Part shown: positions 4,825 to 64,000 of the stretch, one piece after another
Layout of the letters: every line of letters begins with the position of its first letter
Numbering within the stretch: the stretch's first letter is position 1
Source of the DNA: an uncultured virus (IMG/VR IMGVR_UViG_3300033175_000002)
Lineage: Duplodnaviria > Heunggongvirae > Uroviricota > Caudoviricetes
IMG/VR virus record: IMGVR_UViG_3300033175_000002
DNA: 64,000 nt
Reading direction: 5' to 3' (one strand)
The notes under the pieces: generated by a model
Databases searched by the model: none
What the model saw: the letters and a program-made list of their open reading frames with translations, nothing else
What the model was told of the DNA's origin: nothing
Position numbers and translations under genes: made by a program

Positions 4825-5235
4825 GTGGCAAACCCAATTCCGAAGAGCACAATCCGCAAAGTCATGGGGGGTCGTCTCCCCCCAGACATGCAGGTCGCGA
4901 AATCGGCGGTGGTCGATATGCAGGCCGCCACGATCGAGTTCATCGAATCCATGACTGACCGAGCCTGCTCTCTGGCCCGGGCCCGGATCATGTTGCGGCG
5001 TCCCGGTCACGACCGGGGTACCCGGCTGACCCTGGAGGACGTCCAGACTGCGCTGAATTACTCGCCCGACGAGCTGCCTCAACCCGTGACCGACCCCGAC
5101 CTGGCGGCTCTCGTGATCGGGTTCGCCCTGAACGTCCAGGACGAGCTCTTCACAAAAGAGGAGCTGCGGGAGATGGCCGACGAGATCCTCGTTCGCATGA
5201 AGTACAGGGGCCGGGGACCGGAGGGTGAAAAGTGA
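4825..5235 (+). CDS. Histone-fold protein with C-terminal extension
   Basis: IPKSTIRKVM...QVAKSAVVDMQAATIEFIESMTDRACSLA...TRLTLEDVQTAL matches archaeal histone/NF-YB helix pattern; GAGGTGA RBS. Confidence 0.75.
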   Translation: MANPIPKSTIRKVMGGRLPPDMQVAKSAVVDMQAATIEFIESMTDRACSLARARIMLRRPGHDRGTRLTLEDVQTALNYSPDELPQPVTDPDLAALVIGFALNVQDELFTKEELREMADEILVRMKYRGRGPEGEK

Positions 5236-16558: not shown

Positions 16559-17047
16559 ATGGACGCAAACAAGATGAGGAAGATAGCAGGAGTTATGTTC
16601 GGGATGGTTGCGATCCTGATAGTGGTCGCGCTGATGATACCCGCCCCCCAACCCGTCTCTGACTACAGCGGCGCCCTCACGGAGGATGCGGTAAAGGCCG
16701 AGCTGCCTTCGACCGAGAGGGGAGCTCAGGTCTCGGTCGTAGACGGTGGGGTGGTGACGGTCACCCGGACCATGAAGCCGAACCTGACCCCGGCCATGAT
16801 GCTCTCCGGAGGCCGGATCGATACGATCGAGGTCTTCGAGGCGCTGTTCGAAGATCCTCGCATCGAGCAGGTGATGGTAATCTCGAACACCGAGTTCACG
16901 GACAAATATGGGCAGTCGACTAAGGGGGCCGGTTGCTGGTACCGCTTATCCCGGGCGACCGCTGACAGGGTGAACTGGGACGTGATGCCGTTCGAGAACT
17001 TGGATCAGATTGCTGATGCCTACTTCGTCCACCCGGCGCTGCGGTGA
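16559..17047 (+). CDS. Membrane-anchored surface protein
   Basis: N-terminal basic plus hydrophobic segment KIAGVMFGMVAILIVVALMI; GGAGGTG RBS. Confidence 0.7.
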   Translation: MDANKMRKIAGVMFGMVAILIVVALMIPAPQPVSDYSGALTEDAVKAELPSTERGAQVSVVDGGVVTVTRTMKPNLTPAMMLSGGRIDTIEVFEALFEDPRIEQVMVISNTEFTDKYGQSTKGAGCWYRLSRATADRVNWDVMPFENLDQIADAYFVHPALR

Positions 17048-17058
17048 GAGGTGGCCCG

Positions 17059-18666
17059 ATGGTATCGTACATCAACCACGAGCTCCTGACTCCGGGCGCC
17101 CTGGAGTACCGGGAATATCAGGTCGGGCTGGCCCTCGAAGCGACCGACAAAAACTCGCTGGTAGTGCTGCAGACCGGGCTGGGGAAGACCCCCATCCTGC
17201 TCCTGTTGGCGCTCGCCAAGTGGAGCGAGGGCAAGGTCCTGGTCTTGGCCCCGACCCGGCCCCTGGTCGAACAGCACCGGCGTTTCTTCCGGGCCATGAT
17301 GGTCGTCCCTGACGAGGAGGTGGAGTTCGTCCACGGGCTCGTCCCGCCTTCGGAGCGGGCCCGGATCTACTCCCGGGCGAAGGTGATCGTCTCCACCCCC
17401 CAGACGATCAGGTCGGACCTGGACGAACCCCTGGCCCGGCAAATCGCCCTCGTCTGTTTCGATGAGGCCCACCGGGCGGTCGGTGCCTACGCCTACTGCG
17501 ACGTTGCGGCCAAGCTGCGGCAGTTCCGGTCCCCGGCTCTCGTCGTCGGGCTGACGGCATCCCCAGGGACCACCCCCGAAGCGGTCGATGAGGTTTGCCG
17601 CAACCTCGGGATCGAGCAGAGGTTATCTCGGTCGAGGACCGATCCCGACGTCGCCCCGCACGTCCAGCCGATCGCCGAGGAGGTGGTCGAGGTCCCCCTC
17701 GAACCCCAGATGGCGGAGGCCCTGAAAACCCTTCACGCGATGACCCAGGCCCTCTACGACGAGGTGAACGAGAAGGCCCGCCCCTCCCTCTGGCGGGACC
17801 GGATCGGGGCGGGGACCGCGAAGTCCGATATCATCCGGAGGTCGAAACGTGTCTCGGCCATGATATCGAGCTCGAAGAACGTCCGGACCGCTGGAGCCAC
17901 CCCGCTCCCATCGGGGGCGTATATAGTGGTCCGAGACCTGGCCGGCATCACCATGCTGCGTCATGCTATCGAGCTGGCGGAGTCCCAGGGGGCGTTTGTC
18001 CTCTGGGACTACCTCGTCAGCCTGGAGCAGAAGCCCACGAAAGCGGCGGCCATGATCCGGGCGACTGCCGGCTACAAGAAGCTGATACGTCTCCTGTCGG
18101 CCGCGGGGTTCGGGAGCGGGACCGAGGGACCGGCGGTCTCCCCGAAGCTCTCCACGATCCGGGGGCTGGTCGATGGTACCCTGACGGCGGACCCCGAATC
18201 AAAGATCCTGATCTTCTCGAACTACCGGGCTGCCGTCGAGACTATTTTCAGGATGCTGCGGCGGCCCGGCCTTGCTCCGGTTCGCCCTGCGAGGTTCATC
18301 GGCCAGGCCGACGGCCGAGTCAACCGGGGGATGAAGCAGGCCGACCAGCGTCGGGCGGTCGAAATGTTCCGTTCCGGGGAGGTGAACGTCTTGGTCGCCA
18401 CCTCGGTAGGCGAGGAGGGGATCGACATCCCTGGCGTCGACCTCTGCATCTTCCACGAACCGGTACCGAGCGCGATCCGTCACGTCCAGAGGCGGGGGAG
18501 GACTGGGAGGTTCGAGGCCGGCCGGTGCATCATCCTGGTCTCGAAAGGAGTCGATGAAGCGTCGCTTGCGGCCAGCCGGAGGGCTGAACGGAGCATGGCG
18601 ACCGCTCTGAACGATCCGACCCGGCAAACGACTTTGGAACCTCTCCAATCCGAGCAGGGGGGCTAA
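17059..18666 (+). CDS. Hef/FANCM-like SF2 DEAH helicase without the ERCC4 nuclease domain
   Basis: REYQ, LQTGLGKT, LAPTRPLVEQH, FDEAHRAVG, GLTASPG, VATSVGEEGIDIP, QRRGRTGR. Confidence 0.93.
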   Translation: MVSYINHELLTPGALEYREYQVGLALEATDKNSLVVLQTGLGKTPILLLLALAKWSEGKVLVLAPTRPLVEQHRRFFRAMMVVPDEEVEFVHGLVPPSERARIYSRAKVIVSTPQTIRSDLDEPLARQIALVCFDEAHRAVGAYAYCDVAAKLRQFRSPALVVGLTASPGTTPEAVDEVCRNLGIEQRLSRSRTDPDVAPHVQPIAEEVVEVPLEPQMAEALKTLHAMTQALYDEVNEKARPSLWRDRIGAGTAKSDIIRRSKRVSAMISSSKNVRTAGATPLPSGAYIVVRDLAGITMLRHAIELAESQGAFVLWDYLVSLEQKPTKAAAMIRATAGYKKLIRLLSAAGFGSGTEGPAVSPKLSTIRGLVDGTLTADPESKILIFSNYRAAVETIFRMLRRPGLAPVRPARFIGQADGRVNRGMKQADQRRAVEMFRSGEVNVLVATSVGEEGIDIPGVDLCIFHEPVPSAIRHVQRRGRTGRFEAGRCIILVSKGVDEASLAASRRAERSMATALNDPTRQTTLEPLQSEQGG

Positions 18667-18803: not shown

Positions 18804-19415
18804 GTGACCCCGTCCCCCCCCACAAAGATCCACGAAATTTTTTCAAGTATCCAAGGCGAAGGCCCCTGGTCAGGCCGGCCGTGCGTGTTCATCCGGCTCT
18901 TCGGCTGCAACTCGAACTGCAAGGGCTGCGATACTCCGCAGGCGTCTCCGAGGTTGATGCAGCCGGCGGAGATCCTTGATGCCGTCCCGGACCACCCTCT
19001 CCCGATCGTGATCACTGGGGGCGAACCCTGCCTACAGGCTGAGCAGCTGAGGATGATTGCGGTCATGCTGCCCATCGGGGGGATGAGGCCGCTTGCCCTG
19101 GAGACGAACGGAACGATCCCGCTCGATCCCGATCTGGTCGAGCGGTTCGACCTGATCGTGGTCGGCTACACCGACGACGACCTGAGCGGGGTCCTCGACC
19201 CCATCAACGTCGATCAGTTCTTCGAAGAAATCCCAGCCGAGACGCTGCACCCAAAAGACGATCGGACCGAGACCTGCCCACTATGCGGAGCCGAGTTCGT
19301 CCTGAGCCGAGCAAAGCGGTTCAAGAAACCCCGACCTCCGAAAGAGGAGATCGAGCCGGTCGAAACCGCTCAGGTCGACCCCGGCCCAGAGGAGGGAGAG
19401 GATGAGCAGATCTAA
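18804..19415 (+). CDS. Truncated QueE-like radical SAM protein fused to unrelated C-terminus
   Basis: EIFSSIQGEG...FIRLFGCNSNCKGCDT, ITGGEP, LETNGT; then acidic segment and CPLCG. Confidence 0.8.
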   Translation: MTPSPPTKIHEIFSSIQGEGPWSGRPCVFIRLFGCNSNCKGCDTPQASPRLMQPAEILDAVPDHPLPIVITGGEPCLQAEQLRMIAVMLPIGGMRPLALETNGTIPLDPDLVERFDLIVVGYTDDDLSGVLDPINVDQFFEEIPAETLHPKDDRTETCPLCGAEFVLSRAKRFKKPRPPKEEIEPVETAQVDPGPEEGEDEQI

Positions 19416-25387: not shown

Positions 25388-28300
25388 ATGGGGTGGGGGA
25401 TGACGGAAGTCGAGGATATCGTCGAAGAGATGGGGAACCGGTTCGCGGTCCGAGTGAGCGACCGCACCAGAGAGAACCTGATCCGGGCCTACGGCCGAGG
25501 CGCCGACCTGGTCGCTTACGAGGCGACCGGGAAGACCGGGCCGGTGAGCCTGGGCGGGAGCACCCCCAGCCGCGTCGACGCGGTCATCAAAGAGGTCTGC
25601 AAACCTATCGAAGACTGGAACCGGCAGCTAGCGTCGGATGTCAGCGACGCGGTCCGCCAAAAGATGGCTGAGGGAGCCAGCCCCGGTGAGCTAGCCCGGT
25701 TCATCCGGGAAGACCTGGCCGAGAAGATCGGAGACCGGCCCGTGACGATCCATCGGGACGGCAAACGGCCTTGGACATCGACCCCTAAAAATTATGCAGA
25801 TCTCGTATCGAGGACCCTGCCGAACCGGCTTCGCAACGAGGCTTATCTCGAGCACGGCGAAAAGATGGGGATCTACGACGGCTGGGTCTCTATCGCTACC
25901 GGGGACGAGAGGATGTGCTCGATCTGTGGAGCGAGGCACGGTCGCTTCTTCCCGTTCGGCGCCGACGTCCCCCCATACCACCCCCGGTGCAGGTGCCGAG
26001 CCGTCCTCCACCTGAGAGAAGGGGCGACCCCTCCCGAGGGGGCCCCGTCTCCTGAAGAGCTGGCCTGGTGCAAGGTCGCCTGGGAGGAGATCGACGATGC
26101 CTACGCCAAGGTTGTCGCTCTCGACGAGGAACGGAAACGGCTCGCTATTCGAGCCCGCGGGGAGCCCCTCGCCGGGGCGGATGCTAAGAAGCTGGCCCAG
26201 ATCGAGGCCCAGATGGCCCGGCTCCGGAGCAAAGCCGCGAAGAAGCAGGCCGAGCTGTACCGCGTCCGAGCGAAGTTCCACGCTCAGATGAGCTGGCAGC
26301 AGGCTGAGGATCGGCTGCGGGTCGGGGCCGGTCGAGACTTCGCCCACTTCGAAGGGCTTAAGAACTCCGCTGCCCGGGACGTCGGCGCCGTCCTGAACGC
26401 CTACATGACCGACTACCCTGAGTTCTTCGCCGACCAGATGGGGCTCGTCCTGACCCATACCGAGATCGGCCGAGGGGCGGTCGATCGGACCCTTCAGCGG
26501 GAGATGGTCGACGAGCTCGTTCGGCGGGGTGCCTCCCGGGACTGGGCCCAGTTCGTCGTCGGTCAGCAGGCCAAAGGTCGCGCATCCGAGCTTGTCAAAT
26601 CGCTGATGATTCCTCCCGAGGGGATACCCTGGGCTACCCGACGCGGTGACCTGGGGGGTCTTCGCGTCCTGGTGCTGCACGACCAGACCGTCGGGGACCT
26701 CGACGCTCTTTCGGCTGCGATGCTGCAGGACGTTCTGGCTGGTCGGCGGTCGTGGGGGTCGGAGAACCCGCTCTCGGTGATCGAGTCCGAGATGGGGAGG
26801 ACGATCGCTAGCAAGCTCGACCTCGCGTACAAAGGGACCCTCCTATCCGACCTGTACGACTCGATCGGACCGGCCCGGATTCGGGACGAGCTGAGCGCCC
26901 AGGCTACCGTGTCCCGTCAGGACTTCCTGGCCGAGGCGTGGGTCGAGTTCCGACTGTCCCCGTCACCCCGCCCCCTGGCTACGGCCGTCGGCCGGTACAT
27001 GGAGGAGGAACTCCAGGTCTACGAACAGCAGCATCGGGGGCAGGTTCGTCCAGCGGGATCGCTCGGGGCCAGGTTGCTCGACCCGGCCACCCCAGTCCGC
27101 GGTGAGGTCCCGAAAGGGCCGAACGAAGCCGAGATCGATGCGAAGGTCGAAGAATCGAAACGGTTGCGGCAGCGGTGGGCTGACCTCGCGGCAACCATCC
27201 GATCCATGAACGCTCATATCAAACGCCTGGCTAGCCGGGCTGCGATACCCAGAGCTGAGATCGGGTCGGCCGAGGCTCGGTACGCTATCGCTCGGGAGGC
27301 CGAGACCGAGCTGACCCAGACCCACCGGGCGATCCTCGACATCGATGCCTGGTTCAGGTCGTCCGGCGTTTCCCCGGTGCCTATCGCCCCCTGGTCGGAG
27401 TCCCGGATCGAGCTCGACCCGATGCCCGACCTCCGCGGCGAAGCTATGAGGAAAGCTCTCGCGCTCGAAAAACAGATCGAGCAGGGGATAGCCCAGCTCC
27501 GGACCTGGGCTGCTGAGATCGAGGACTTCAACTCGAACGTCGTCACCGAGATCGAGTCGGGGATGGGCGAGGACGAGATGAGGTCGTGGCTGGCGACCGT
27601 GATCTCGACCCATAAAGAGATGCGAGCTCTCCACAAGTCGCTCGAACCTCTGGTCGCGCCCGTCAAGGAGTGGCTGGATCGAGACCTCGGTCCGGCCCTG
27701 GCCGATTCCCATCCCGACAAAACCAAGATCGCCCACACTCTCGGTTCCCTGCTGGAGATGATCAAGGGGCGGCTGGCGGGCGAAGCTGCCGAGAAGCTGC
27801 GCGAGGCCGCGGCCCCCCACCCCGGAGGCGTCCACGAGACCGCTGAGATGGTGGACCTCCGGGCGCGATTGCTCGAAACCGAGGCCGAGCTGGCCCGGCT
27901 TCGGGCCGAGGGATCAGTCGGAACCATACCGCAGAGGAACCAGCTCCTCAAAGAGGTCGTCGACATGAGGCGTGAGTACGGGGAGCTCATGAAGGCTGAC
28001 GTCCTCGCCCGGTCGAAGGTGCCTCACGGTCGAGCCGTCAAAGAATCTGATAAGCATCTTCGGACCTACCTGGCCGACACCTACGGCCACAAGGTCCGGG
28101 TCAATTACGGTGCGGTTGCGAAAGATAGCGCCAACCTGCTGAACTCGATGGTCGCCGAGTACATGGAGTACGCCCCGACCCCCAAAAAGGGGTTCGGCTC
28201 GATCGGTGACGCTGCCACGTCCGGCCGCGGTGACTATTCGTCCGCTTATGCGTTCACCAGCGGCAAAATGTTCGGGCCGACCGATCGGGTCGGGCTGTAC

Positions 28301-29965
28301 CTGAACGGGAGCTCGGAATATTTTGGGGACCGCTCGAACTTGATCGCGTCCCTCCGTCGAGACGTTCAAGTCGGGTTCCACCCGCCGGGGACCGATACCG
28401 AGAAGGGCGTGATCGATCACGAGATGGCCCACGTCCTCGACATCTGGTACGGGCTCAGCAACAATCGCAAAATTAACGCCATCTGGGATAAGCACTTCAC
28501 TAAGGAGATCAAGTCGGGACTGTCCGAGTACGCCCTGGAAAACGAGCGAGAATTTATCGCGGAAGCCTGGAGCGAGTACAAGAACTCGCCGAACCCCCGG
28601 CCCATATCGGTCGAGGTCGGTCAAGCGATCGAGGAGCGGATCGCGTTTACCCTCAAGCGGAAGGGTCGATCGTTGCCGGGTCGGGTCGAGTCCCCCAAAC
28701 CGACCGTCCCGCCCCAGATGAAAGAACGGCTCAAAAGCCTGAGATCGAAGTTCGGAGGGCTCCGACTCTACATCCTCACCTGGAACGAGACCGCATCGAA
28801 ACTCCAGGGGGAGGGGCTGGTCCGGTCCCAGGTCGAGACGTACGTCCGGCAGCAAGAGACCGCGCTCAAGAACGCTGTCACCGCTGCCCAGGTGGCCGCC
28901 GAGATCCGGCAGATCGAAGAGATGTACCGGGCCGCTGGAGAGGAGGTACCCGGGAAAGAGATCGATTCGACCGTCCCACCGGCGACCCGGCTCGATTTCG
29001 ATGAGCTCGTCGAGAAACGGGCCAAGCTCTCGAAAAAGAGGTTCGCCGACCTGCTCTCCCAGATGAGGACCCACCTCCGGGTCGTGGCCTCGTTCAACGA
29101 GTCGATCGAATCCCAGATCACTGCAGATGCGGATTTCTACGTCCTGGTGGCCCGTCGAGCTATTGCGGCTGGGGCCCTCCAGACCGCGGTCGAGGTGGCG
29201 TCCGAGCTGCTGGCGGTGGCCGAGGAGATCGAACGGGCGACCGGCGAGGACTACGTTTCGAAAATCTCCCCGGACCCCCGCGAGATCGAGCTCGTCGTGA
29301 CCGAAGCCGAGATTCAGTCGAAGATCGAGGAGGCGAAAAAGAGAGCCGAGGGGGAGGCGAAACCACCCGAACCGGTCCCAGGTGGTCCCAACCCCTATCA
29401 AGATCCCGGGTCAAAAATGTACGCCTGGGGCGGGTTCGAGCGCAGCGTCACCGCGGAAGAGCGGAAGGTCATCGACCGCTACTGCTCGAACGATTTCGAA
29501 GAGATCAACCCCCTCCTGAGAGAGAGCCGAAACTTCGTCCGCGAGGGGGACCCCGACCTGGTCGAAAAGATTCAGATCCTCGACGACGTCGTGTCCCGGG
29601 GACGCCTGAAACCCCAGACCGTCTACCGAGGGATGACCGGCTACCCAGAGGTCGTTCAAAAGTTCGTGAAAGGCGTCGGGACGGAGGTCATGGATAAAGC
29701 GTTTGTTTCTACGACAGCCGACCTCGACGTGGCAAAAGGGTTCGCGGCTGACAGCATGGGGCTACCTTCTGTCCTGCTGGAGATCCAAGTGCCAAAAGGG
29801 GCTCCGGGGGTGTTCGTGGCCCCCTTCTCCGAAGCAGTAACCGAGACGGGCGCTAACGAGAACGAGATCCTGTTGCCCCGGAACAGCCGGTTCAAAATAT
29901 TGAGCGCGACCCGCTCTTCAGATGGTTCGTATCGGGTCGCTGCCGAGATGATAGTGGAGGGTTGA
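25388..29965 (+). CDS. MuF (SPP1 gp7-like) head morphogenesis protein fused to two zincin-like domains and a C-terminal ADP-ribosyltransferase
   Basis: GDERMCSICG...PPYHPRCRC (MuF); HEMAH...LSEYA...EFIAEAW; INPLLR...TVYRG...FVSTT...ENEILLPR (R-S-E ART); start uncertain (25340-25400). Confidence 0.9.
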   Translation: MGWGMTEVEDIVEEMGNRFAVRVSDRTRENLIRAYGRGADLVAYEATGKTGPVSLGGSTPSRVDAVIKEVCKPIEDWNRQLASDVSDAVRQKMAEGASPGELARFIREDLAEKIGDRPVTIHRDGKRPWTSTPKNYADLVSRTLPNRLRNEAYLEHGEKMGIYDGWVSIATGDERMCSICGARHGRFFPFGADVPPYHPRCRCRAVLHLREGATPPEGAPSPEELAWCKVAWEEIDDAYAKVVALDEERKRLAIRARGEPLAGADAKKLAQIEAQMARLRSKAAKKQAELYRVRAKFHAQMSWQQAEDRLRVGAGRDFAHFEGLKNSAARDVGAVLNAYMTDYPEFFADQMGLVLTHTEIGRGAVDRTLQREMVDELVRRGASRDWAQFVVGQQAKGRASELVKSLMIPPEGIPWATRRGDLGGLRVLVLHDQTVGDLDALSAAMLQDVLAGRRSWGSENPLSVIESEMGRTIASKLDLAYKGTLLSDLYDSIGPARIRDELSAQATVSRQDFLAEAWVEFRLSPSPRPLATAVGRYMEEELQVYEQQHRGQVRPAGSLGARLLDPATPVRGEVPKGPNEAEIDAKVEESKRLRQRWADLAATIRSMNAHIKRLASRAAIPRAEIGSAEARYAIAREAETELTQTHRAILDIDAWFRSSGVSPVPIAPWSESRIELDPMPDLRGEAMRKALALEKQIEQGIAQLRTWAAEIEDFNSNVVTEIESGMGEDEMRSWLATVISTHKEMRALHKSLEPLVAPVKEWLDRDLGPALADSHPDKTKIAHTLGSLLEMIKGRLAGEAAEKLREAAAPHPGGVHETAEMVDLRARLLETEAELARLRAEGSVGTIPQRNQLLKEVVDMRREYGELMKADVLARSKVPHGRAVKESDKHLRTYLADTYGHKVRVNYGAVAKDSANLLNSMVAEYMEYAPTPKKGFGSIGDAATSGRGDYSSAYAFTSGKMFGPTDRVGLYLNGSSEYFGDRSNLIASLRRDVQVGFHPPGTDTEKGVIDHEMAHVLDIWYGLSNNRKINAIWDKHFTKEIKSGLSEYALENEREFIAEAWSEYKNSPNPRPISVEVGQAIEERIAFTLKRKGRSLPGRVESPKPTVPPQMKERLKSLRSKFGGLRLYILTWNETASKLQGEGLVRSQVETYVRQQETALKNAVTAAQVAAEIRQIEEMYRAAGEEVPGKEIDSTVPPATRLDFDELVEKRAKLSKKRFADLLSQMRTHLRVVASFNESIESQITADADFYVLVARRAIAAGALQTAVEVASELLAVAEEIERATGEDYVSKISPDPREIELVVTEAEIQSKIEEAKKRAEGEAKPPEPVPGGPNPYQDPGSKMYAWGGFERSVTAEERKVIDRYCSNDFEEINPLLRESRNFVREGDPDLVEKIQILDDVVSRGRLKPQTVYRGMTGYPEVVQKFVKGVGTEVMDKAFVSTTADLDVAKGFAADSMGLPSVLLEIQVPKGAPGVFVAPFSEAVTETGANENEILLPRNSRFKILSATRSSDGSYRVAAEMIVEG

Positions 29966-29967
29966 CG

Positions 29968-30390
29968 ATGGAACATCCCGATATGGCCGAGCTAACTTAC
30001 GCCTCGTGCGTTGCGTGTAAACATAAGAGCCTGACCGGGCCTACCTGTACTGCTTACCCTGACGGTATCCCCGAACCCATCTTAGCGGGGCGGGTCTCTC
30101 ACCTGGACTCGTACCCAGGGGACAACGGGATCAGGTTCGACCGTGAGGAGGGGTCGGAGTGGATCCGGTTCACCTGGCAGACTACTGAGGAGGGGAGGCG
30201 GGTCGTAGGGCTGGCCCGGGCTGCGGTCGAGACCTGGAACCGCGACTTCCTTCGGCGGAGGTGGTCCGAACCGGAGGACGGTCTTAGGGCTGAGTACTCC
30301 CGGGTCGTCTCCCTGCTGGCCGAGGCCCAGCCCCTCGATACCGAATCCCCGCTTCCCAGGCCCAAACTGCTGACCCGGTGGGGGCCCTGA
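29968..30390 (+). CDS. Cys-rich protein, candidate immunity protein 1
   Basis: CVACKH...CTAYPDGIP..IL.G...H...YPGDNGIRF; directly after the toxin domain. Confidence 0.6.
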   Translation: MEHPDMAELTYASCVACKHKSLTGPTCTAYPDGIPEPILAGRVSHLDSYPGDNGIRFDREEGSEWIRFTWQTTEEGRRVVGLARAAVETWNRDFLRRRWSEPEDGLRAEYSRVVSLLAEAQPLDTESPLPRPKLLTRWGP

Positions 30391-30414: not shown

Positions 30415-30628
30415 GTGCAGATCGGCCATAACTTGTGATAATTTTGGATCCGTAAGTCTGAAGATTCCGGGAAAACTGCTAAACCGCTACCAGGCTCGGC
30501 CGTCCTAGCCTCGCGTTGGCGGCCGATCTCGATCGGGCCTTTATGTTAGAAGCTCGGGTTTTATCTGGCCCGTTTATTCAATTTTATATCGAATTATCCT
30601 GGCCGTTGAATCTGGTTCGGGCCGAATC
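30415..30628 (+). repeat. Long direct repeat copy 1
   Basis: 30415-30614 matches 58281-58480 with 2 mismatches; similarity extends 14 bp further. Confidence 0.97.
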
Positions 30629-30697
30629 TCGGCTATCAGACTAAAAATTCAAAGTTGCCCGAAAGGTATTTATGAACATTCTCGCCTATAATGACTC

Positions 30698-30886
30698 ATG
30701 GTTATCGGACCGGCTCCGGTTTGCCTGGACTGCCGTCATCTGAGGCTCAAAAAGGGGAACATTCACTGTGAAGCGTTCCCGGACGAAATCCCGGCCGAGA
30801 TATGGATCGGGGGAGCTTCGCATGACGAACCCTTCCCGGGGGACCATGGGATCCGGTTCGAACCGAAGGATGACGTCGAACCCTGA
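30698..30886 (+). CDS. Cys-rich protein, candidate immunity protein 2 (paralogue of 29968)
   Basis: CLDCRH...CEAFPDEIP..IW.G...H...FPGDHGIRF; own TATA-like box GAAAGGTATTTATG at 30661. Confidence 0.65.
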   Translation: MVIGPAPVCLDCRHLRLKKGNIHCEAFPDEIPAEIWIGGASHDEPFPGDHGIRFEPKDDVEP

Positions 30887-30971: not shown

Positions 30972-31262
30972 ATGCCTACTAAAACTTGTGGACGTACTTG
31001 CTGCCCGTCTTGTGGATGCGAACTTGAGATCACCGAGACCGAGGAGGGATCGCTGGGCTGTATCGAGTTCCTCGGACCTGAGGCCCTGCTGCTGGCCGGA
31101 TACGTGAAGACTCGAAACGGGGCCATCATGTTCGTCGGACCCGACGGGACCGCCTACTCCCGGACCGAGGCGGTAACCAAATTCGGTCTGTCCGAGGTCG
31201 AACATCAGGAGCGGAAGGCTGCTGCGGCCGATCGGACGGTGATCAAGCTCGGGAAGTGGTGA
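30972..31262 (+). CDS. Hypothetical zinc-ribbon protein
   Basis: GGAGG RBS; CCPSCG. Confidence 0.55.
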   Translation: MPTKTCGRTCCPSCGCELEITETEEGSLGCIEFLGPEALLLAGYVKTRNGAIMFVGPDGTAYSRTEAVTKFGLSEVEHQERKAAAADRTVIKLGKW

Positions 31263-31507: not shown

Positions 31508-31720
31508 TCGGACTGTTAGGCCGGTCCTAGAACCGGCCTAGAATACGCTAAATCTGGCCGTTAACCCTCGATTTATGCAGTATTTTGGCGATTAGACGGC
31601 CCAACCCGAGGCAAACTCATTTATACTTGAAAATTTGAAGTATAAGTTCGGGTGGGCGGGTCTGGAGTGGGGGAATCGCCTATACGCCCCTGGGGAGGGG
31701 CTAACCTGGAACCTAACTGC

Positions 31721-36378: not shown

Positions 36379-38112
36379 GTGGGGGAGGCGATCGATCTCA
36401 TGGTGGATATGCTGGTTCTGGCTGATCGAACTCTGCCGAGCCCCTGGACTAAAGTTACGTCTGCCGACGGGAACTACGTCCGATGCGCCGCGTCAGGCTG
36501 CTGGGGTACCGGCGGCGATTCCACCCACCGTCATCTATCAGTCCCAACATATTCCGAGAGCCCGGGTACGTCCGCTGCTCAATCCGGGACTGGGGCGACT
36601 CGCCTCGTCGTCCACAATCATCTGATATCTGCGACTTATTCGGGGGATTCGAGCAACGATCCCCTTTATTACACCCTGGCTCTGTGGAAAATCGACTACG
36701 ATACCTGGCACAACGATAAGGCGATGCCCGAGGGTGTCGTCGTTCTATCCTACTCCTCGATATCCTCAAGCGGTTGGACTCGATGGTCTGCCGGCGACGG
36801 GAGACTGATCAAGCTGGGGTTTCCGGGGGGCTCCGGTGGCAGATCTACCCACACCAACCATTCGCTATCGGCGACCCTCAATGACTCCTCCGCGGGCGCG
36901 GAAGTGAAGTCCGGGTTCGGTGCGTTTTTCGGTCTGGTCGAAGACCACCCCCATTCGACCGTAACTATTAGCACCGTTTCCTCCGCGTCTCTGTTTCCTA
37001 GCCTCGTCAAAACCCGGTTCTACCTCGTCGATGACGATATAGACGAGATACCCGCGGGTATCGTGGTATTTTTTGACGGTACTCCCCGGAACCACTGGGA
37101 GCTGCTGAGCGATTGGTCGGGGAAGTTTCCGATGAGTGCGAACTCGTCCCCGGATCTAGTCTCCGGGGACCACAATCACCCGAACAATTCCGTCTCTTCA
37201 AATTATGCTTCGATGAATGGTGGGGCGGTTCAATCCGGATCTGGCGCGGCATGCGTAGCCGGTGCTCACCTCCACGCCAACTACGTTACCCTCGGTGATA
37301 CCGAAGCGGTGCCCCCGTTCGTACATCTCATACCGTATCGTCTGGTGTCCACCCAACCGCTAGGGGCGCCGCCACCCGAAGAAAATTCAAAAACCTGGTC
37401 AATCGATGCGGTTATGAAGGTTGCCCGGGCCGCGTCATGGAGCTCATCCGGGCGGCTGCTGAAGGGAATCGAGAAGACCGTCCCGGGATCGGTTGCTCTG
37501 CTGAAGGCGGTCGATGAGGCCGTCCCGGGAACGGTTGCTCTGCTGAAGGCGGTCGATGAGGCCGTCCCGGGAACGGTTGCTCTGCTGAAGGCGGTCGATG
37601 AGGCCGTCCCGGGAACGGTTGCTCTGCTGAGGACCGAATCGGTAGCGACCGACCTGACCGGGCGTTTTCTCCGAGTGGGGGAGGTTCCGTTCGGAGTCGA
37701 TGCCGCCCTCCAACTGCAGGACGTGGTCGCTGAGGCAGAGGTCGGGGTTCTGGTCCGCTACGTCTGGGCGGGGGGGCTTGATGTATCGGTGTTCCTCGCT
37801 CGATCCCGGGCGGTCGGAACTTTGCTCCAGAGCGCTTTCTCGTGTGGTTCCGGGGCGCCGTGCAGGATTTCGGTATCGTTCGCCCGCGACTATCCCCGGC
37901 CGAGGATGCCCTTCGTTCGAGAGACCCTGAGACCTGCCCCCTCTGGAGGACGTCCGGCCGACCCGGTCCGATGGGATCGGGAGGGGGAGAGGGCCCCGCT
38001 CGTTCGAGAGACCCTGGAGCCCGTTCCGACTGGAGACCGGCCTTCTGATCCGATCGACTGGGGCGCGATCGAACTGAAAGGCCGAGAGAAGGTCGTCCGG
38101 CGGTGGTACTAG
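36379..38112 (+). CDS. Fibre-like protein A (HxH-motif head, 14-residue repeat shaft)
   Basis: THRH, HNH, HPH, HLH motifs; N-terminus paralogous to 39933 ORF. Confidence 0.65.
   Translation: MGEAIDLMVDMLVLADRTLPSPWTKVTSADGNYVRCAASGCWGTGGDSTHRHLSVPTYSESPGTSAAQSGTGATRLVVHNHLISATYSGDSSNDPLYYTLALWKIDYDTWHNDKAMPEGVVVLSYSSISSSGWTRWSAGDGRLIKLGFPGGSGGRSTHTNHSLSATLNDSSAGAEVKSGFGAFFGLVEDHPHSTVTISTVSSASLFPSLVKTRFYLVDDDIDEIPAGIVVFFDGTPRNHWELLSDWSGKFPMSANSSPDLVSGDHNHPNNSVSSNYASMNGGAVQSGSGAACVAGAHLHANYVTLGDTEAVPPFVHLIPYRLVSTQPLGAPPPEENSKTWSIDAVMKVARAASWSSSGRLLKGIEKTVPGSVALLKAVDEAVPGTVALLKAVDEAVPGTVALLKAVDEAVPGTVALLRTESVATDLTGRFLRVGEVPFGVDAALQLQDVVAEAEVGVLVRYVWAGGLDVSVFLARSRAVGTLLQSAFSCGSGAPCRISVSFARDYPRPRMPFVRETLRPAPSGGRPADPVRWDREGERAPLVRETLEPVPTGDRPSDPIDWGAIELKGREKVVRRWY
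37456..37630 (+). repeat. 42-bp coding tandem repeat (three identical units plus partial/degenerate flanks)
   Basis: Unit CGGTTGCTCTGCTGAAGGCGGTCGATGAGGCCGTCCCGGGAA encoding KAVDEAVPGTVALL. Confidence 0.95.
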
Positions 38113-58280: not shown

Positions 58281-58494
58281 GTGCAGATCGGCCATAACTT
58301 GTGATAATTTTGGATCCGTAGGTCTGAAGATTCCGGGAAAACTGTTAAACCGCTACCAGGCTCGGCCGTCCTAGCCTCGCGTTGGCGGCCGATCTCGATC
58401 GGGCCTTTATGTTAGAAGCTCGGGTTTTATCTGGCCCGTTTATTCAATTTTATATCGAATTATCCTGGCCGTTGAATCTGATCCGAGCCGAATC
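58281..58494 (+). repeat. Long direct repeat copy 2
   Basis: Near-identical to 30415-30628. Confidence 0.97.
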
Positions 58495-62526: not shown

Positions 62527-64000
62527 TTGACTGAGCTGTCCGGGCCGTGGGGAAAAGTGACTCCCGAGGAGATCGAACGGTTCTTGTCGACCCGGTACCG
62601 GGACCGGATCCTGGAGCTGGCAGAACGGGGTCCCGACCGGTTCAGCCTGGTCGTTTCGTTCCGGGACGTGGCCCGGTTCAGCGTAGACCTGGCCGAGGGG
62701 CTGCTCGATCAGCCCACCGAGGTCATCGAGCTGTTCGAGGAGGTCTTGAGGTCGGCAGATCTACCGCTAGACGTCGACCTGTCCCAGTTCAGGGTTCTCG
62801 TCTCGGATCTGCCCGATTCCCAGAGGGTGACGGTCAACGACCTCCGGTCCGAGCATATCGGCCGGCTGATCGAGATCGTGGGTCTCGTCCGCACCGCTAC
62901 CGAGGTCCGGCCCCGGATCGTCAACTCGGTGTTCGAGTGCCAGCGATGCGGCCACATATTCTCGATCTTCCAGAATCAGTCGAAGTTTCGGGAGCCGTAC
63001 TCCTGTCCGAACCAGGCTTGCGATCGGAAGGGCCCGTTCCGGCTGATTCTCGCGAGGAGCAAGTACGTCGATGCCCAGAACATCCGAGTCCAGGCCCTAT
63101 ACGAGGAGCTGGACGGGGGCGAGATCCCCCAGACCCTCGACGTCCAGGTCGAACGCGACCTGACGGCCAAGGTCTTCCCCGGCGACGTCGTCGAGTTCGC
63201 CGGGGTGCTGAGGTCGTACCAGAGGTCGACCCAGGTCGGGAAGAGCTCCTACTTCGACCTGTTCCTCGACTGCCGGGGGCTGAGGGTCCGGAACAAGGAC
63301 CTCCTCGACACGGAGCTCACTCCCGAGGACGAGGACGAGATCCGACGGTTGGCGCGATCCCCGGACGCCCTCGGCCAGGTATCGAGCTCCTTAGTCCCGT
63401 ACATCCACGGGCACGACCCGATCAAACGCGCTATAGCCCTCCAGATCTTCAGCGCTCCGGAGGTTCGGCGGCCCGATGGAACCACAGTCCGGGGGGACGT
63501 CCACATCCTCCTGTGCGGGGATCCTGGTGTCGCAAAAAGTCAGATTCTCCGGAGGGCCGCAAAGCTGTCTCCCCGGAGCGTGTACACCTCCGGCAAGTCG
63601 GCCAGCGGGGTCGGGCTGACTGCCGCCGCCGTGAAGGACGACTCGGGCCGGTGGACGGTGGAGGGAGGAGCCCTCGTCCTGGCCGACGGCGGGTTCGCCT
63701 GCATCGATGAGCTGGACAAGATCGGCAAGGACGACCTGGGCTCGATTCATGAAGCCCTCGAACACCAGACGATCTCGTTCATGAAGGCGGGGATCAATGC
63801 GGTCCTACGGTGCAGGTCGCCGGTCCTAGCGGCGTGTAACCCGGTCGGTGAGAGGTTCGACCTCATGGAGCCCATATCAGCTCAGCTCGGGGTCCCGGCG
63901 GCGCTGCTGACCCGGTTCGACCTCGTCTACGCTCTGATCGACGACCCCGACCCGGACCGGTCCCGCCAGATGGTCGACCACATCTTGGCGTCGTACGTGG
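62527..64000 (+). CDS. mcm: MCM replicative helicase, truncated by window end (missing from ORF track)
   Basis: Manual translation from TTG 62527: LRSEHIGRLIEIVGLVR, FECQRCGH, HILLCGDPGVAKSQ, ACIDELDK, AACNP, LLTRFDL. Confidence 0.95.
   Translation, partial: MTELSGPWGKVTPEEIERFLSTRYRDRILELAERGPDRFSLVVSFRDVARFSVDLAEGLLDQPTEVIELFEEVLRSADLPLDVDLSQFRVLVSDLPDSQRVTVNDLRSEHIGRLIEIVGLVRTATEVRPRIVNSVFECQRCGHIFSIFQNQSKFREPYSCPNQACDRKGPFRLILARSKYVDAQNIRVQALYEELDGGEIPQTLDVQVERDLTAKVFPGDVVEFAGVLRSYQRSTQVGKSSYFDLFLDCRGLRVRNKDLLDTELTPEDEDEIRRLARSPDALGQVSSSLVPYIHGHDPIKRAIALQIFSAPEVRRPDGTTVRGDVHILLCGDPGVAKSQILRRAAKLSPRSVYTSGKSASGVGLTAAAVKDDSGRWTVEGGALVLADGGFACIDELDKIGKDDLGSIHEALEHQTISFMKAGINAVLRCRSPVLAACNPVGERFDLMEPISAQLGVPAALLTRFDLVYALIDDPDPDRSRQMVDHILASYV

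What the first reader, a model, noticed from the sequence alone, without database searches (positions are those of the whole stretch)
25388..29965. Giant MuF head protein carrying stacked effectors: dead zincin, live zincin and ADP-ribosyltransferase
Seen: N-terminal MuF; two homologous domains, VIESEMGR...LSAQA...DFLAEAWVEF...PSPRPLA (~26790, His lost) and VIDHEMAH...LSEYA...EFIAEAWSEY...PNPRPIS (~28420, HExxH intact); helical spacers; C-terminal ART with YRG, STT and ENE. Known: MuF polymorphic toxins are described from bacterial phages, generally with one toxin domain; ExE-type R-S-E ARTs modify arginine; T4 Alt is a capsid-delivered ART. Inference: a virion-delivered, multi-effector host-takeover or anti-defence protein in an archaeal virus, perhaps self-processed by the protease.
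Basis: partly seen in the sequence, partly recalled or inferred. Interest (0 to 1): 0.85.

Follow-up and report, generated by a model that had tools for sequence, protein, structure and literature searches.

The report
Methanogen virus head toxin with antidotes
A virus that most likely infects methane-making archaea carries a giant head protein with two working enzyme cargoes and one long-dead enzyme scaffold, followed by two small proteins of an unnamed family that appear to act as matched antidotes by plugging the enzymes with a swappable front end.

Summary
One ORF (probable start 25400) encodes MuF, a dead zincin (Z1), helical repeats, an intact lethal-factor-like zincin (Z2), more repeats and an R-S-E/ExE ART. 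MCM, Hef, a histone fold, TATA/BRE boxes and Methanothrix-labelled relatives point to an archaeal host.

The interpretation needs changes. MuF+zincin and MuF+ART toxins are published, and stacked forms occur in other phages. Z1 is not a cargo: it is dead in all six clade members, forms one clade, and can be the only module after MuF. Cargo varies behind it (none, ART+ART, Z2+ART), and Z2 is swapped internally. Relatives without a live zincin keep their ARTs, which argues against self-processing.

New here: the two small Cys-rich genes downstream belong to an unnamed family tied to MuF-type cargo genes. Its N-terminal arm length follows cargo class. A predicted complex puts the second protein's arm in Z2's active site (0.78, best control 0.01). 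A Methanosarcina provirus holds a five-copy array with mixed arms.

Best reading: a virion-borne MuF polymorphic toxin with modular-arm immunity proteins. No activity, binding or packaging has been measured.

The parts
25400..29965 (+). MuF fusion gene, about 1521 aa (residue numbers below count from ATG 25388 = P0001)
   Evidence: start from relatives and the 25388 A>G variant in 4 of 4 runs
25400..26032 (+). MuF / SPP1 gp7 minor head domain with CxxC...HPxCRC motif; several relatives carry an intein in this motif
   Evidence: Pfam PF04233, TIGR01641, PHROG head-morphogenesis families; inteins
26051..26269 (+). Long two-helix hairpin between MuF and Z1
   Evidence: model secondary structure; kept in all six clade members
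26279..27037 (+). Z1: catalytically dead zincin of the lethal-factor (ATLF)-like lineage; fixed part of the N-terminal block
   Evidence: fold match Z 11.5 to 1yqy 558-778; both motif histidines absent in 6 of 6; the dead copies form one clade, SH-aLRT 99, quick tree
27116..27721 (+). Two ~100-aa helical spacer units
   Evidence: homologous to units in P0005/P0006; similarity inside P0001 is weak and mostly transitive
27872..28556 (+). Segment exchanged between close relatives (linker helix plus most of Z2)
   Evidence: 49% identity to P0003 against 98% in the segment after it and 77% / 99% in the two before it; an X15 contig joins across it with a replaced allele
28028..28666 (+). Z2: intact zincin (H1011, E1012, H1015, E1055, Y1048)
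   Evidence: model pLDDT 92.7; top folds LF domain IV, Certhrax N-domain, PPEP-2/3; phrog_324 C-terminal part
28697..29281 (+). Two further helical spacer units
   Evidence: no ESM Atlas feature hit
29420..29962 (+). R-S-E ADP-ribosyltransferase, Alt/VIP2 type, ExE motif (R1414, S1441, E1491, E1493)
   Evidence: PF03496 E 5e-20; R, S and E invariant in a 10-row alignment; nearest solved sequences Vip2, CdtA, iota Ia
29968..30390 (+). CRP1: Cys-rich small protein with a 13-residue N-terminal arm, fused to a 75-aa tail that matches the C-terminus of the cargo-less relative P0007; candidate ART immunity protein
   Evidence: phrog_33375; 42% identical to CRP2, E 6e-12; tail score 97 against shuffles 33+-5, maximum 53 of 300; binding to the ART not tested
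30415..30628 (.). 214-bp non-coding element, second copy at 58281-58494 (98%)
   Evidence: no Rfam match; folds no better than shuffles, z 0.22
30660..30675 (+). Archaeal BRE/TATA-like box about 25 nt before the CRP2 start
   Evidence: pattern occurs 5 times against 0.36 expected, but it was chosen after seeing the sites
30698..30886 (+). CRP2: 62-aa Cys-rich protein with an 8-residue arm; candidate inhibitor (immunity protein) of Z2
   Evidence: predicted complex 0.78 against best control 0.01, arm in the active-site cleft; family context

Best explanation
This is a MuF polymorphic-toxin locus of a contractile-tailed virus of a methanogen (probably Methanothrix or kin). Shown from sequence: a fixed N-terminal block (MuF, hairpin, dead zincin) carries a variable chain of helical units and enzyme cargoes, here an intact lethal-factor-like zincin and an ExE ART. 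Inferred: MuF loads one or a few copies into the head beside the portal, and the protein enters the next cell with the DNA. There the ART modifies arginines and the zincin cuts a host or rival-virus protein; the targets are unknown. The dead zincin is a binding or structural domain and needs no antidote. Inferred from context and one model: the producing cell is protected by two paralogous small Zn-finger-like proteins whose N-terminal arm plugs the active site. The short-arm CRP2 pairs with Z2 and the longer-arm CRP1 with the ART. Because the arm is encoded right behind the cargo's 3' end, crossovers in the conserved scaffold can swap cargo and arm together and leave arrays of orphan antidotes.
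For: Position between portal-like gene and capsid protease/major capsid genes. Cargo differs across the clade: none (P0007, P0008), ART+ART (P0005, P0006), Z2+ART (P0001, P0003). Internal Z2 swap. Run X9 differs at 23 listed sites in the gene: 15 non-synonymous and 1 synonymous in Z2+ART, 2 and 5 elsewhere, Fisher p 0.0034. The CRP family lies behind head-type cargo genes: of 66 distinct upstream proteins, 42 have one zincin, 11 a JAB-like domain, 5 one ART, 5 two domain calls (one probably a split domain), 3 none; 40 of 75 hit PF04233. Arm length is median 7 after a zincin (n=34), 17 after JAB-like (n=11) and 17.5 after ART (n=6); p 1.8e-5 and 0.0018. CRP2-Z2 complex scores 0.78, best of 3 controls 0.01; the mark was reached by 116 of 157 solved and 2 of 215 mismatched pairs; runs agree in at least 98% of contacts, partner pLDDT at least 71; CRP2 residues 1-6 touch H1011, E1012 and the edge strand, and H1015 is in the interface. 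L019, whose MuF-zincin NCBI names as Methanosarcina thermophila, has five tandem CRPs, two with JAB-type arms like those of L021/L022/L025. Bxa (MuF-ART) is toxic, modifies arginines and has two immunity genes (PMC11699363, passages).
Against: No activity, binding, expression or packaging was measured. Within the zincin class, arm sequence did not track zincin similarity (Mantel rho 0.046, 379 of 2000 permutations as high; partial 0.022). In the P0003 swap the predicted interface is no more diverged than the rest (16 of 34 against 63 of 136 identical). A peptide in a protease cleft can be a substrate as well as an inhibitor. The arm-length test ignores relatedness; cargo labels are clustered on the CRP tree (11 changes against 15.7 shuffled). 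About 76% of sites in these domains are non-synonymous, so 15 of 16 does not prove positive selection. No integrase or repressor was found among the ORFs scanned, so a temperate lifestyle is not shown. The Methanothrix labels come from short contigs that appear to be of one MAG.
Confidence: 0.62

Rival explanations
1. Polyvalent protein with self-processing (first reader; Iyer 2017 model): Z2 cuts the chain in the head or after entry to free the ART, and CRP2 only times that cut.
For: Iyer 2017 proposes autoproteolysis by embedded zincins and cites P1 DdrB (PMC5512222 section 8). Z2 lies upstream of the ART, and the linkers are proline-rich. Pro-Pro endopeptidases are among the fold neighbours.
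Against: P0005 and P0006 carry two ARTs with no HExxH. In most CRP loci the zincin is the last or only cargo. Z2 is the most variable part, while linkers and ART are 97-98% conserved in P0003; a self-cutting enzyme should be as conserved as its sites.
Confidence: 0.14
2. The protein acts mainly in the infected or lysogenic cell (superinfection exclusion, growth arrest, virus-virus conflict) as a toxin-antitoxin-like module, not as injected cargo.
For: CRP2 has its own promoter-like box. Orphan arrays suit protection against rival viruses. A 170-kDa protein is large for passage through a tail (inference).
Against: The fusion to MuF and the place in the head operon are kept in the clade. SPP1 gp7 is a virion protein (PMC5576092 passage). 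Giant MuF-ART proteins occur in isolated phages. The two roles do not exclude each other.
Confidence: 0.14
3. The CRPs are generic MuF partners or assembly factors (or Z2 substrates), not immunity proteins, and the zincin is a morphogenesis protease.
For: One scaffold follows at least three unrelated cargo types. PHROGs files the zincin inside a 'head morphogenesis' family. The model cannot tell substrate from inhibitor.
Against: Arm length and composition change with cargo class. Nearly identical scaffolds carry different arms beside different cargoes (L019 against L021/L022/L025, SH-aLRT 92). Five tandem copies with mixed arms fit an immunity array. The virus has a separate protease-like gene at 31652. 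No CRP follows cargo-less P0008 in the 180 bases held (weak).
Confidence: 0.1

Closest known systems
MuF polymorphic toxins (Zhang 2012 PMC3482391; Jamet 2017 PMC5576092), including Bxa of Bacteroides stercoris (PMC11699363)
   Same: N-terminal MuF in the head module, variable cargo, small ORFs behind it. ATLF zincin and ADPrib_exo_Tox are both listed cargoes (32 and 27 mentions in supplement 2). Bxa has two immunity genes. Zhang's table lists the MuF system for Euryarchaeota.
   Different: Two live cargoes in one chain, a fixed dead zincin, exchange of an internal rather than the last domain, and two paralogous immunity candidates of one unnamed scaffold. Jamet's table has no 'Methano' entry.
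Polyvalent proteins (Iyer 2017, PMC5512222)
   Same: Several unrelated enzymes in one phage-delivered chain; zincin is the hub domain, 1-5 copies; built up by domain accretion.
   Different: [quoted passage not shown] Here the ART is R-S-E, the host archaeal, and linked immunity candidates exist.
T4 Alt and MuF-fused Alt/VIP2 ARTs (Iyer 2022, PMC9503650)
   Same: R-S-E ART fused to MuF and predicted to be packaged; weak PHROG Alt-like match.
   Different: No zincins are described with them in the passages read; the archaeal target is unknown.
Anthrax lethal factor / edema factor / Certhrax domain set (ATLF, PF07737) and PPEP peptidases
   Same: Same zincin lineage by fold. That family also pairs dead zincin domains with a live zincin or a VIP2-like ART (domain roles recalled).
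   Different: 10-17% identity in the structural alignments, different order, delivery by a virus head; no sign of protective-antigen-type delivery or of a eukaryotic target. It is a parallel use of the same parts, not membership.

Membership tests
MuF polymorphic toxin | N-terminal MuF domain | tested here: met
   TIGR01641 just above cut-off; PF04233 E 3.7e-6
MuF polymorphic toxin | Encoded in the head/DNA-packaging module of a tailed virus | tested here: met
   terminase upstream, protease-like and major capsid genes downstream, sheath and baseplate further on; the portal is called from position only
MuF polymorphic toxin | C-terminal toxin domain with intact catalytic residues | tested here: met
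   ART with R-S-E/ExE
MuF polymorphic toxin | Cargo varies among relatives with a conserved N-terminus | tested here: met
   in the closest pair the exchange is internal
MuF polymorphic toxin | Small downstream immunity ORF(s) | tested here: inconclusive
   two small ORFs; context and one predicted complex support the role; neutralisation not shown
MuF polymorphic toxin | Temperate virus or provirus | tested here: inconclusive
   no integrase among the ORFs scanned; the window may not hold the whole genome; related CRP loci include a provirus record and proteins named from Methanosarcina genomes
MuF polymorphic toxin | Toxic activity and packaging in virions | not testable with these tools
   needs assay and proteomics
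Polyvalent proteins (Iyer 2017) | Two or more unrelated enzyme domains in one chain | tested here: met
   zincin plus ART
Polyvalent proteins (Iyer 2017) | ART of the H-Y-D (Tox-ART-HYD2) type, not Alt/VIP2 | tested here: not met
   the ART is R-S-E, VIP2-like
Polyvalent proteins (Iyer 2017) | Processing by the embedded zincin | not testable with these tools
   comparative evidence is against a need for it
ATLF-like (lethal factor/PPEP) zincin, Z2 | HExxH plus downstream Glu, zincin fold | tested here: met
   PF07737 hits relatives but not P0001 itself
ATLF-like zincin, Z1 as an active enzyme | Metal-binding HExxH site | tested here: not met
   both histidines absent in 6 of 6 copies; fold kept
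Described immunity families (Pfam/NCBIfam/PDB) | CRP matches a named family | tested here: inconclusive
   0 of 56 Pfam, 0 of 5 NCBIfam, no PDB match; only unnamed phrog_33375; HMM libraries miss remote kin
Archaeal (methanogen) tailed virus | Archaeal replication, chromatin and promoter signatures | tested here: met
   MCM E 1.6e-140, Hef E 3e-137, histone fold above cut-off, BRE/TATA-like boxes, Methanothrix-labelled cluster members; no CRISPR or provirus link obtained

The most novel reading that the evidence does not exclude
The Cys-rich proteins are an undescribed, widespread immunity family in which one conserved Zn-finger-like scaffold displays an exchangeable N-terminal arm. The arm plugs the active sites of unrelated MuF cargoes (zincin, JAB-like, ART) and is swapped together with the cargo's 3' end. 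Methanogen viruses use these virion-borne toxins and orphan-antidote arrays against each other, and this virus carries one antidote for each live cargo of a multi-cargo chain.
Probability: 0.4. Interest if true: 0.82.

Novelty: new variant of a known kind. Interest (0 to 1): 0.62.

Why it matters
What MuF toxins do is still open, and the papers read here describe tested members only from bacterial phages. This locus extends them, with stacked cargoes, to a virus of methanogens found in sludge, digesters, landfill and oil facilities. It gives a concrete candidate for arginine ADP-ribosylation and proteolysis during archaeal infection. If the arm model holds, one small scaffold that neutralises three enzyme folds is a new immunity design and a marker for finding hidden toxins. 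It can be tested now, because family members sit in cultured Methanosarcina thermophila and M. acetivorans.

Tried and rejected
Own genome: none is held.

Host link: two scans of GTDB genomes (MuF-Z1 alignment, portal alignment) found no relative, so there is no provirus link.

Annotated phages: tblastn gave no match for the whole protein or the capsid protein, only weak bacterial phage ART and zincin hits for single domains.

More clade members: two alignment searches added none (only 8000 candidates scored each). A terminase scan added only L004 as a close relative.

Structure: Foldseek on the 551-residue model gave nothing at E<=0.001. The ESM Atlas had no usable hit for the spacers and only unnamed viral clusters for CRP2.

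Expression: no RNA holder was listed; this says nothing about expression.

Origin of Z2: whether Z2 arose by duplication of Z1's ancestor or was imported is unresolved; the quick tree does not join them, but support is weak and the careful tree did not finish.

Spacers: they are not clearly repeats within P0001 alone (1 of 6 pairs above all shuffles), and the CRP1/P0007 tail is not matched by the spacer profile.

JAB-like label: it rests on the E, HxH, S, D motif (motif as in Zhang's table). Pfam and PDB gave no support.

Arm specificity within zincins: Mantel test negative.

214-bp repeat as structured RNA: rejected.

Earlier scan notes: four look-ups gave nothing on this locus or family.

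Literature: 10 searches found no description of this architecture, of MuF toxins in methanogen viruses, or of the CRP family. The library lacks most subscription papers, and the supplements of Iyer 2017, Zhang 2012 and Liu 2021 were not seen.


Full report
1. OBSERVATION. The ORF is real: 25340/25388-29965 on the plus strand, 1525 aa from ATG 25388 (P0001; residue numbers below use this start). Pfam finds MuF at 84-205 and ADPrib_exo_Tox at 1350-1513; NCBIfam finds the SPP1 gp7 domain just above its cut-off. The two zincin-like repeats, Z1 and Z2, are 32% identical over 113 aa, E 2e-15. AlphaFold models of the N-terminal 551 residues (pLDDT 82) and of Z2 (pLDDT 93) both match anthrax lethal factor domain IV best: Z 11.5, rmsd 4.5, 187 aligned and Z 12.6, rmsd 3.6, 181 aligned. 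For Z2 the next rows are the Certhrax N-domain, PPEP-2/3 and the edema and lethal factor N-domains. The true start is probably ATG 25400: relatives begin at or next to it, and 25388 reads G in 4 of 4 runs laid.

2. CONTEXT AND HOST. The gene lies in the head operon of a contractile-tailed virus: terminase, a portal-sized gene (called from position only), MuF, a protease-like gene, major capsid, sheath, tape measure, baseplate. The window encodes MCM (E 1.6e-140), a Hef-like helicase (E 3e-137) and a histone fold. BRE/TATA-like boxes occur 5 times against 0.36 expected (pattern chosen after seeing the sites). NCBI labels fragments of relative P0006 and a member of this virus's Hef cluster as Methanothrix sp.; the accessions look like one MAG, and the P0006 fragments lie on 1-2 kb contigs. 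The locus is held by runs from sludge, digesters, landfill, wastewater and an oil facility (21 rows, 16 studies, 8 rows possibly the source). An archaeal, methanogen host is well supported. The genus is only probable, since two GTDB scans found no provirus.

3. THE DEAD ZINCIN IS NOT A CARGO. A search of 1.84 billion representatives with Z1 gave 94 hits; 88 of 94 contain HExxH, many of them in MuF+zincin proteins. Four of the six without it (P0005-P0008) form, with P0001 and P0003, a clade sharing MuF, hairpin and Z1; the other two are a fragment and an unrelated protein. Both motif histidines are absent in 6 of 6 clade members, and the six dead domains group with SH-aLRT 99 in a quick tree of 136 domains. 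The Z1 core is 35-57% identical across lineages, as conserved as the ARTs (35-40%). P0008 is a complete 533-aa protein that ends right after Z1. Z1 was therefore inactivated once, long ago, and kept: a binding or structural domain (inference). The lethal-factor family also uses dead zincin domains for binding (recalled).

4. CARGO IS POLYMORPHIC, ALSO INTERNALLY. Behind Z1 the clade has nothing (P0008), a short tail (P0007), two ARTs (P0005, P0006) or Z2 plus ART (P0001, P0003). The cargoes are separated by ~100-aa helical units, related mainly through cross-matches between lineages. P0003 is 88% identical overall and 97% in the ART, but 49% over residues 829-1054. A landfill contig joins across the same segment with a replaced allele, and contigs from three runs break near 28556-28591. 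For run X9, 27 of 28 differences in the covering contig were listed, 23 inside the gene: 10 of 10 in Z2 and 5 of 6 in the ART are non-synonymous, against 2 of 7 elsewhere (Fisher p 0.0034). This shows that variation concentrates in the live domains. It does not prove positive selection, as about 76% of sites are non-synonymous. Self-processing by Z2 is unlikely to be needed, because P0005 and P0006 have no HExxH.

5. THE DOWNSTREAM GENES. ORFs 29968-30390 (CRP1) and 30698-30886 (CRP2) share a 55-aa CxxC...CxAFPDGIP...H...PGD module (42% identical; phrog_33375). It has no Pfam (0 of 56), NCBIfam (0 of 5) or PDB match. A scan of viral contigs confirmed 103 relatives, of which the best 80 were kept. 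76 had an upstream ORF by my rule, and 75 remained without the window's own. Of these, 40 hit MuF, 3 minor capsid 2, 3 VG15 and 3 portal only. Among 66 distinct upstream proteins the cargo was one zincin in 42, a JAB-like domain in 11 (label by motif only), one ART in 5, two domain calls in 5 (ART-zincin L067, zincin-ART L083, ART-ART L081, two zincins L079, one probable split), and none in 3 (the ART and JAB profiles were built partly from these rows, and the zincin profile was iterated on them). So zincin+ART stacks exist elsewhere, and one small scaffold follows unrelated cargoes.

The arm before the first cysteine differs by class. I gave 56 of the 80 loci, leaving out duplicates and unclassifiable ones; 2 had no start call and 3 with a domain after the zincin were set aside. 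Median arm length was 7 after a zincin (n=34), 17 after JAB-like (n=11; 9 of 11 with an acidic motif) and 17.5 after an ART (n=6). CRP2's arm is 8 residues and CRP1's is 13. Labels are clustered on the CRP tree, so the p values (1.8e-5, 0.0018) overstate independence. However, L019 (zincin) groups with L021/L022/L025 (JAB-like) at SH-aLRT 92 and has a different arm. Of 80 loci, 75 have one CRP, 4 have two and 1 has five. L019's array holds two zincin-type and two JAB-type arms and one apparently broken copy. NCBI names its MuF protein and first CRP as Methanosarcina thermophila, and L025's CRP as M. acetivorans.

One complex was predicted, Z2 with CRP2, both as alignments. It scored 0.78 against a best control of 0.01; this mark was reached by 116 of 157 solved complexes and 2 of 215 mismatched pairs. 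Runs agreed in at least 98% of contacts, and partner pLDDT was at least 71. CRP2 residues 1-6 lie in the cleft against H1011, E1012, Y1048 and the edge strand, with H1015 and E1055 in the interface, like a substrate or a TIMP-type plug (analogy recalled). Four of 10 X9 changes in Z2 fall on this interface (p 0.07), and six within one residue (p 0.035). Against the model: arm sequence did not track zincin similarity across 35 loci (rho 0.046, 379 of 2000), and the P0003 swap is no more diverged at the interface than elsewhere. The zincin closest to Z2 (L019) does have the second most similar arm. CRP1-ART was not modelled. CRP1's 75-aa tail matches the C-terminus of cargo-less P0007 (97 against 33+-5), which suggests that the whole cargo block was inserted or deleted between Z1 and this tail.

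6. MECHANISM. Shown: the anatomy, an intact Z2 site, intact ART motifs, a dead and conserved Z1, cargo exchange, CRP linkage and arm classes. Inferred: packaging through MuF (SPP1 gp7 is a 1-2-copy virion protein, PMC5576092 passage); delivery with the DNA; arginine ADP-ribosylation (ExE rule recalled; shown for the MuF-ART Bxa, PMC11699363 passages); proteolysis of an unknown host or rival target; and protection of the producer by CRP2 (Z2) and CRP1 (ART). Confidence 0.62. Rivals are self-processing (0.14), action in the resident cell only (0.14), and CRPs as assembly factors or substrates (0.10).

7. WHAT IS KNOWN. Jamet 2017 (PMC5576092; passages, section 7, search of supplement 2, first nine places per term): 20% of 191 MuF toxins carry a metallopeptidase and 14% an ART; ATLF and ADPrib_exo_Tox are listed, including a 1499-aa cyanophage MuF-ART; no 'Methano' entry. 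Zhang 2012 (PMC3482391; passages; first 300,000 characters held; main supplement not seen) lists the MuF system for Euryarchaeota and shows no CRP-like immunity family in the passages seen. Iyer 2017 (PMC5512222; abstract, passages, sections 8, 9, 34; FTP files not seen) describes multi-zincin polyvalent proteins and autoproteolysis, excludes Alt/VIP2 ARTs, and notes paucity in archaea. Iyer 2022 (PMC9503650; passages) reports MuF-fused Alt/VIP2 ARTs. Liu 2021 (PMC8651126; passages, tables not seen) lists ARTs in haloviruses HVTV-1 and HCTV-5 and does not mention MuF. PMC8879888 (passages) was not relevant. Ten searches found no account of this architecture or of the CRP family; unseen supplements and subscription papers could hold them.

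8. VERDICT. The protein is a new variant of a known kind: it works like, and meets most tested criteria of, a MuF polymorphic toxin. What lifts it is the archaeal host, the anciently fixed pseudo-zincin, the internal cargo swap, and above all the unnamed modular-arm antidote family, which has members in cultured Methanosarcina and can be tested directly. Interest 0.62; novel case probability 0.4, interest 0.82 if true.

Noticed in passing
window 30415-30628 and 58281-58494: 214-bp non-coding direct repeat (98%), each copy followed by an archaeal TATA-like box; the two copies flank the capsid and tail gene block. No Rfam match, no stable fold.
   Followed up: partly
window 4825-5235: Virus-encoded histone-fold protein (PF00808 above cut-off).
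   Followed up: no
window 62527-64000, 17044-18666, 605-2143, 18804-19415, 51-332: MCM helicase, Hef-like helicase without the nuclease part, TROVE/Ro60 protein and a TnpB fragment, QueE-like radical SAM protein.
   Followed up: partly
L019 4001-5103: Five tandem Cys-rich genes (one apparently broken) with near-identical scaffolds and different arms behind a MuF-zincin gene named from Methanosarcina thermophila.
   Followed up: yes
L020-L025, L028, L041, L042, L048, L049, L064 (upstream ORF C-termini): A ~190-aa MuF cargo with an E...HNHP...S..D motif (JAB-like by motif only), unknown to Pfam and PDB.
   Followed up: partly
P0005, P0007, P0104, P0108, L006, L048: An intein sits in the MuF cysteine motif in some relatives and is absent in near-identical ones.
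   Followed up: no
P0006 C-terminal ART: The second ART has D-T-E where the others have ExE, which suggests another target or lower activity.
   Followed up: no
window 37456-37665: 42-nt tandem repeat (about 4 copies) inside the 577-aa ORF at 36379.
   Followed up: no
run X13, record 4: A more diverged allele matches in patches from MuF through to the ART, so a third full-architecture lineage seems to exist; another X13 contig joins 30733 to 31338, skipping the ORF at 30972.
   Followed up: no
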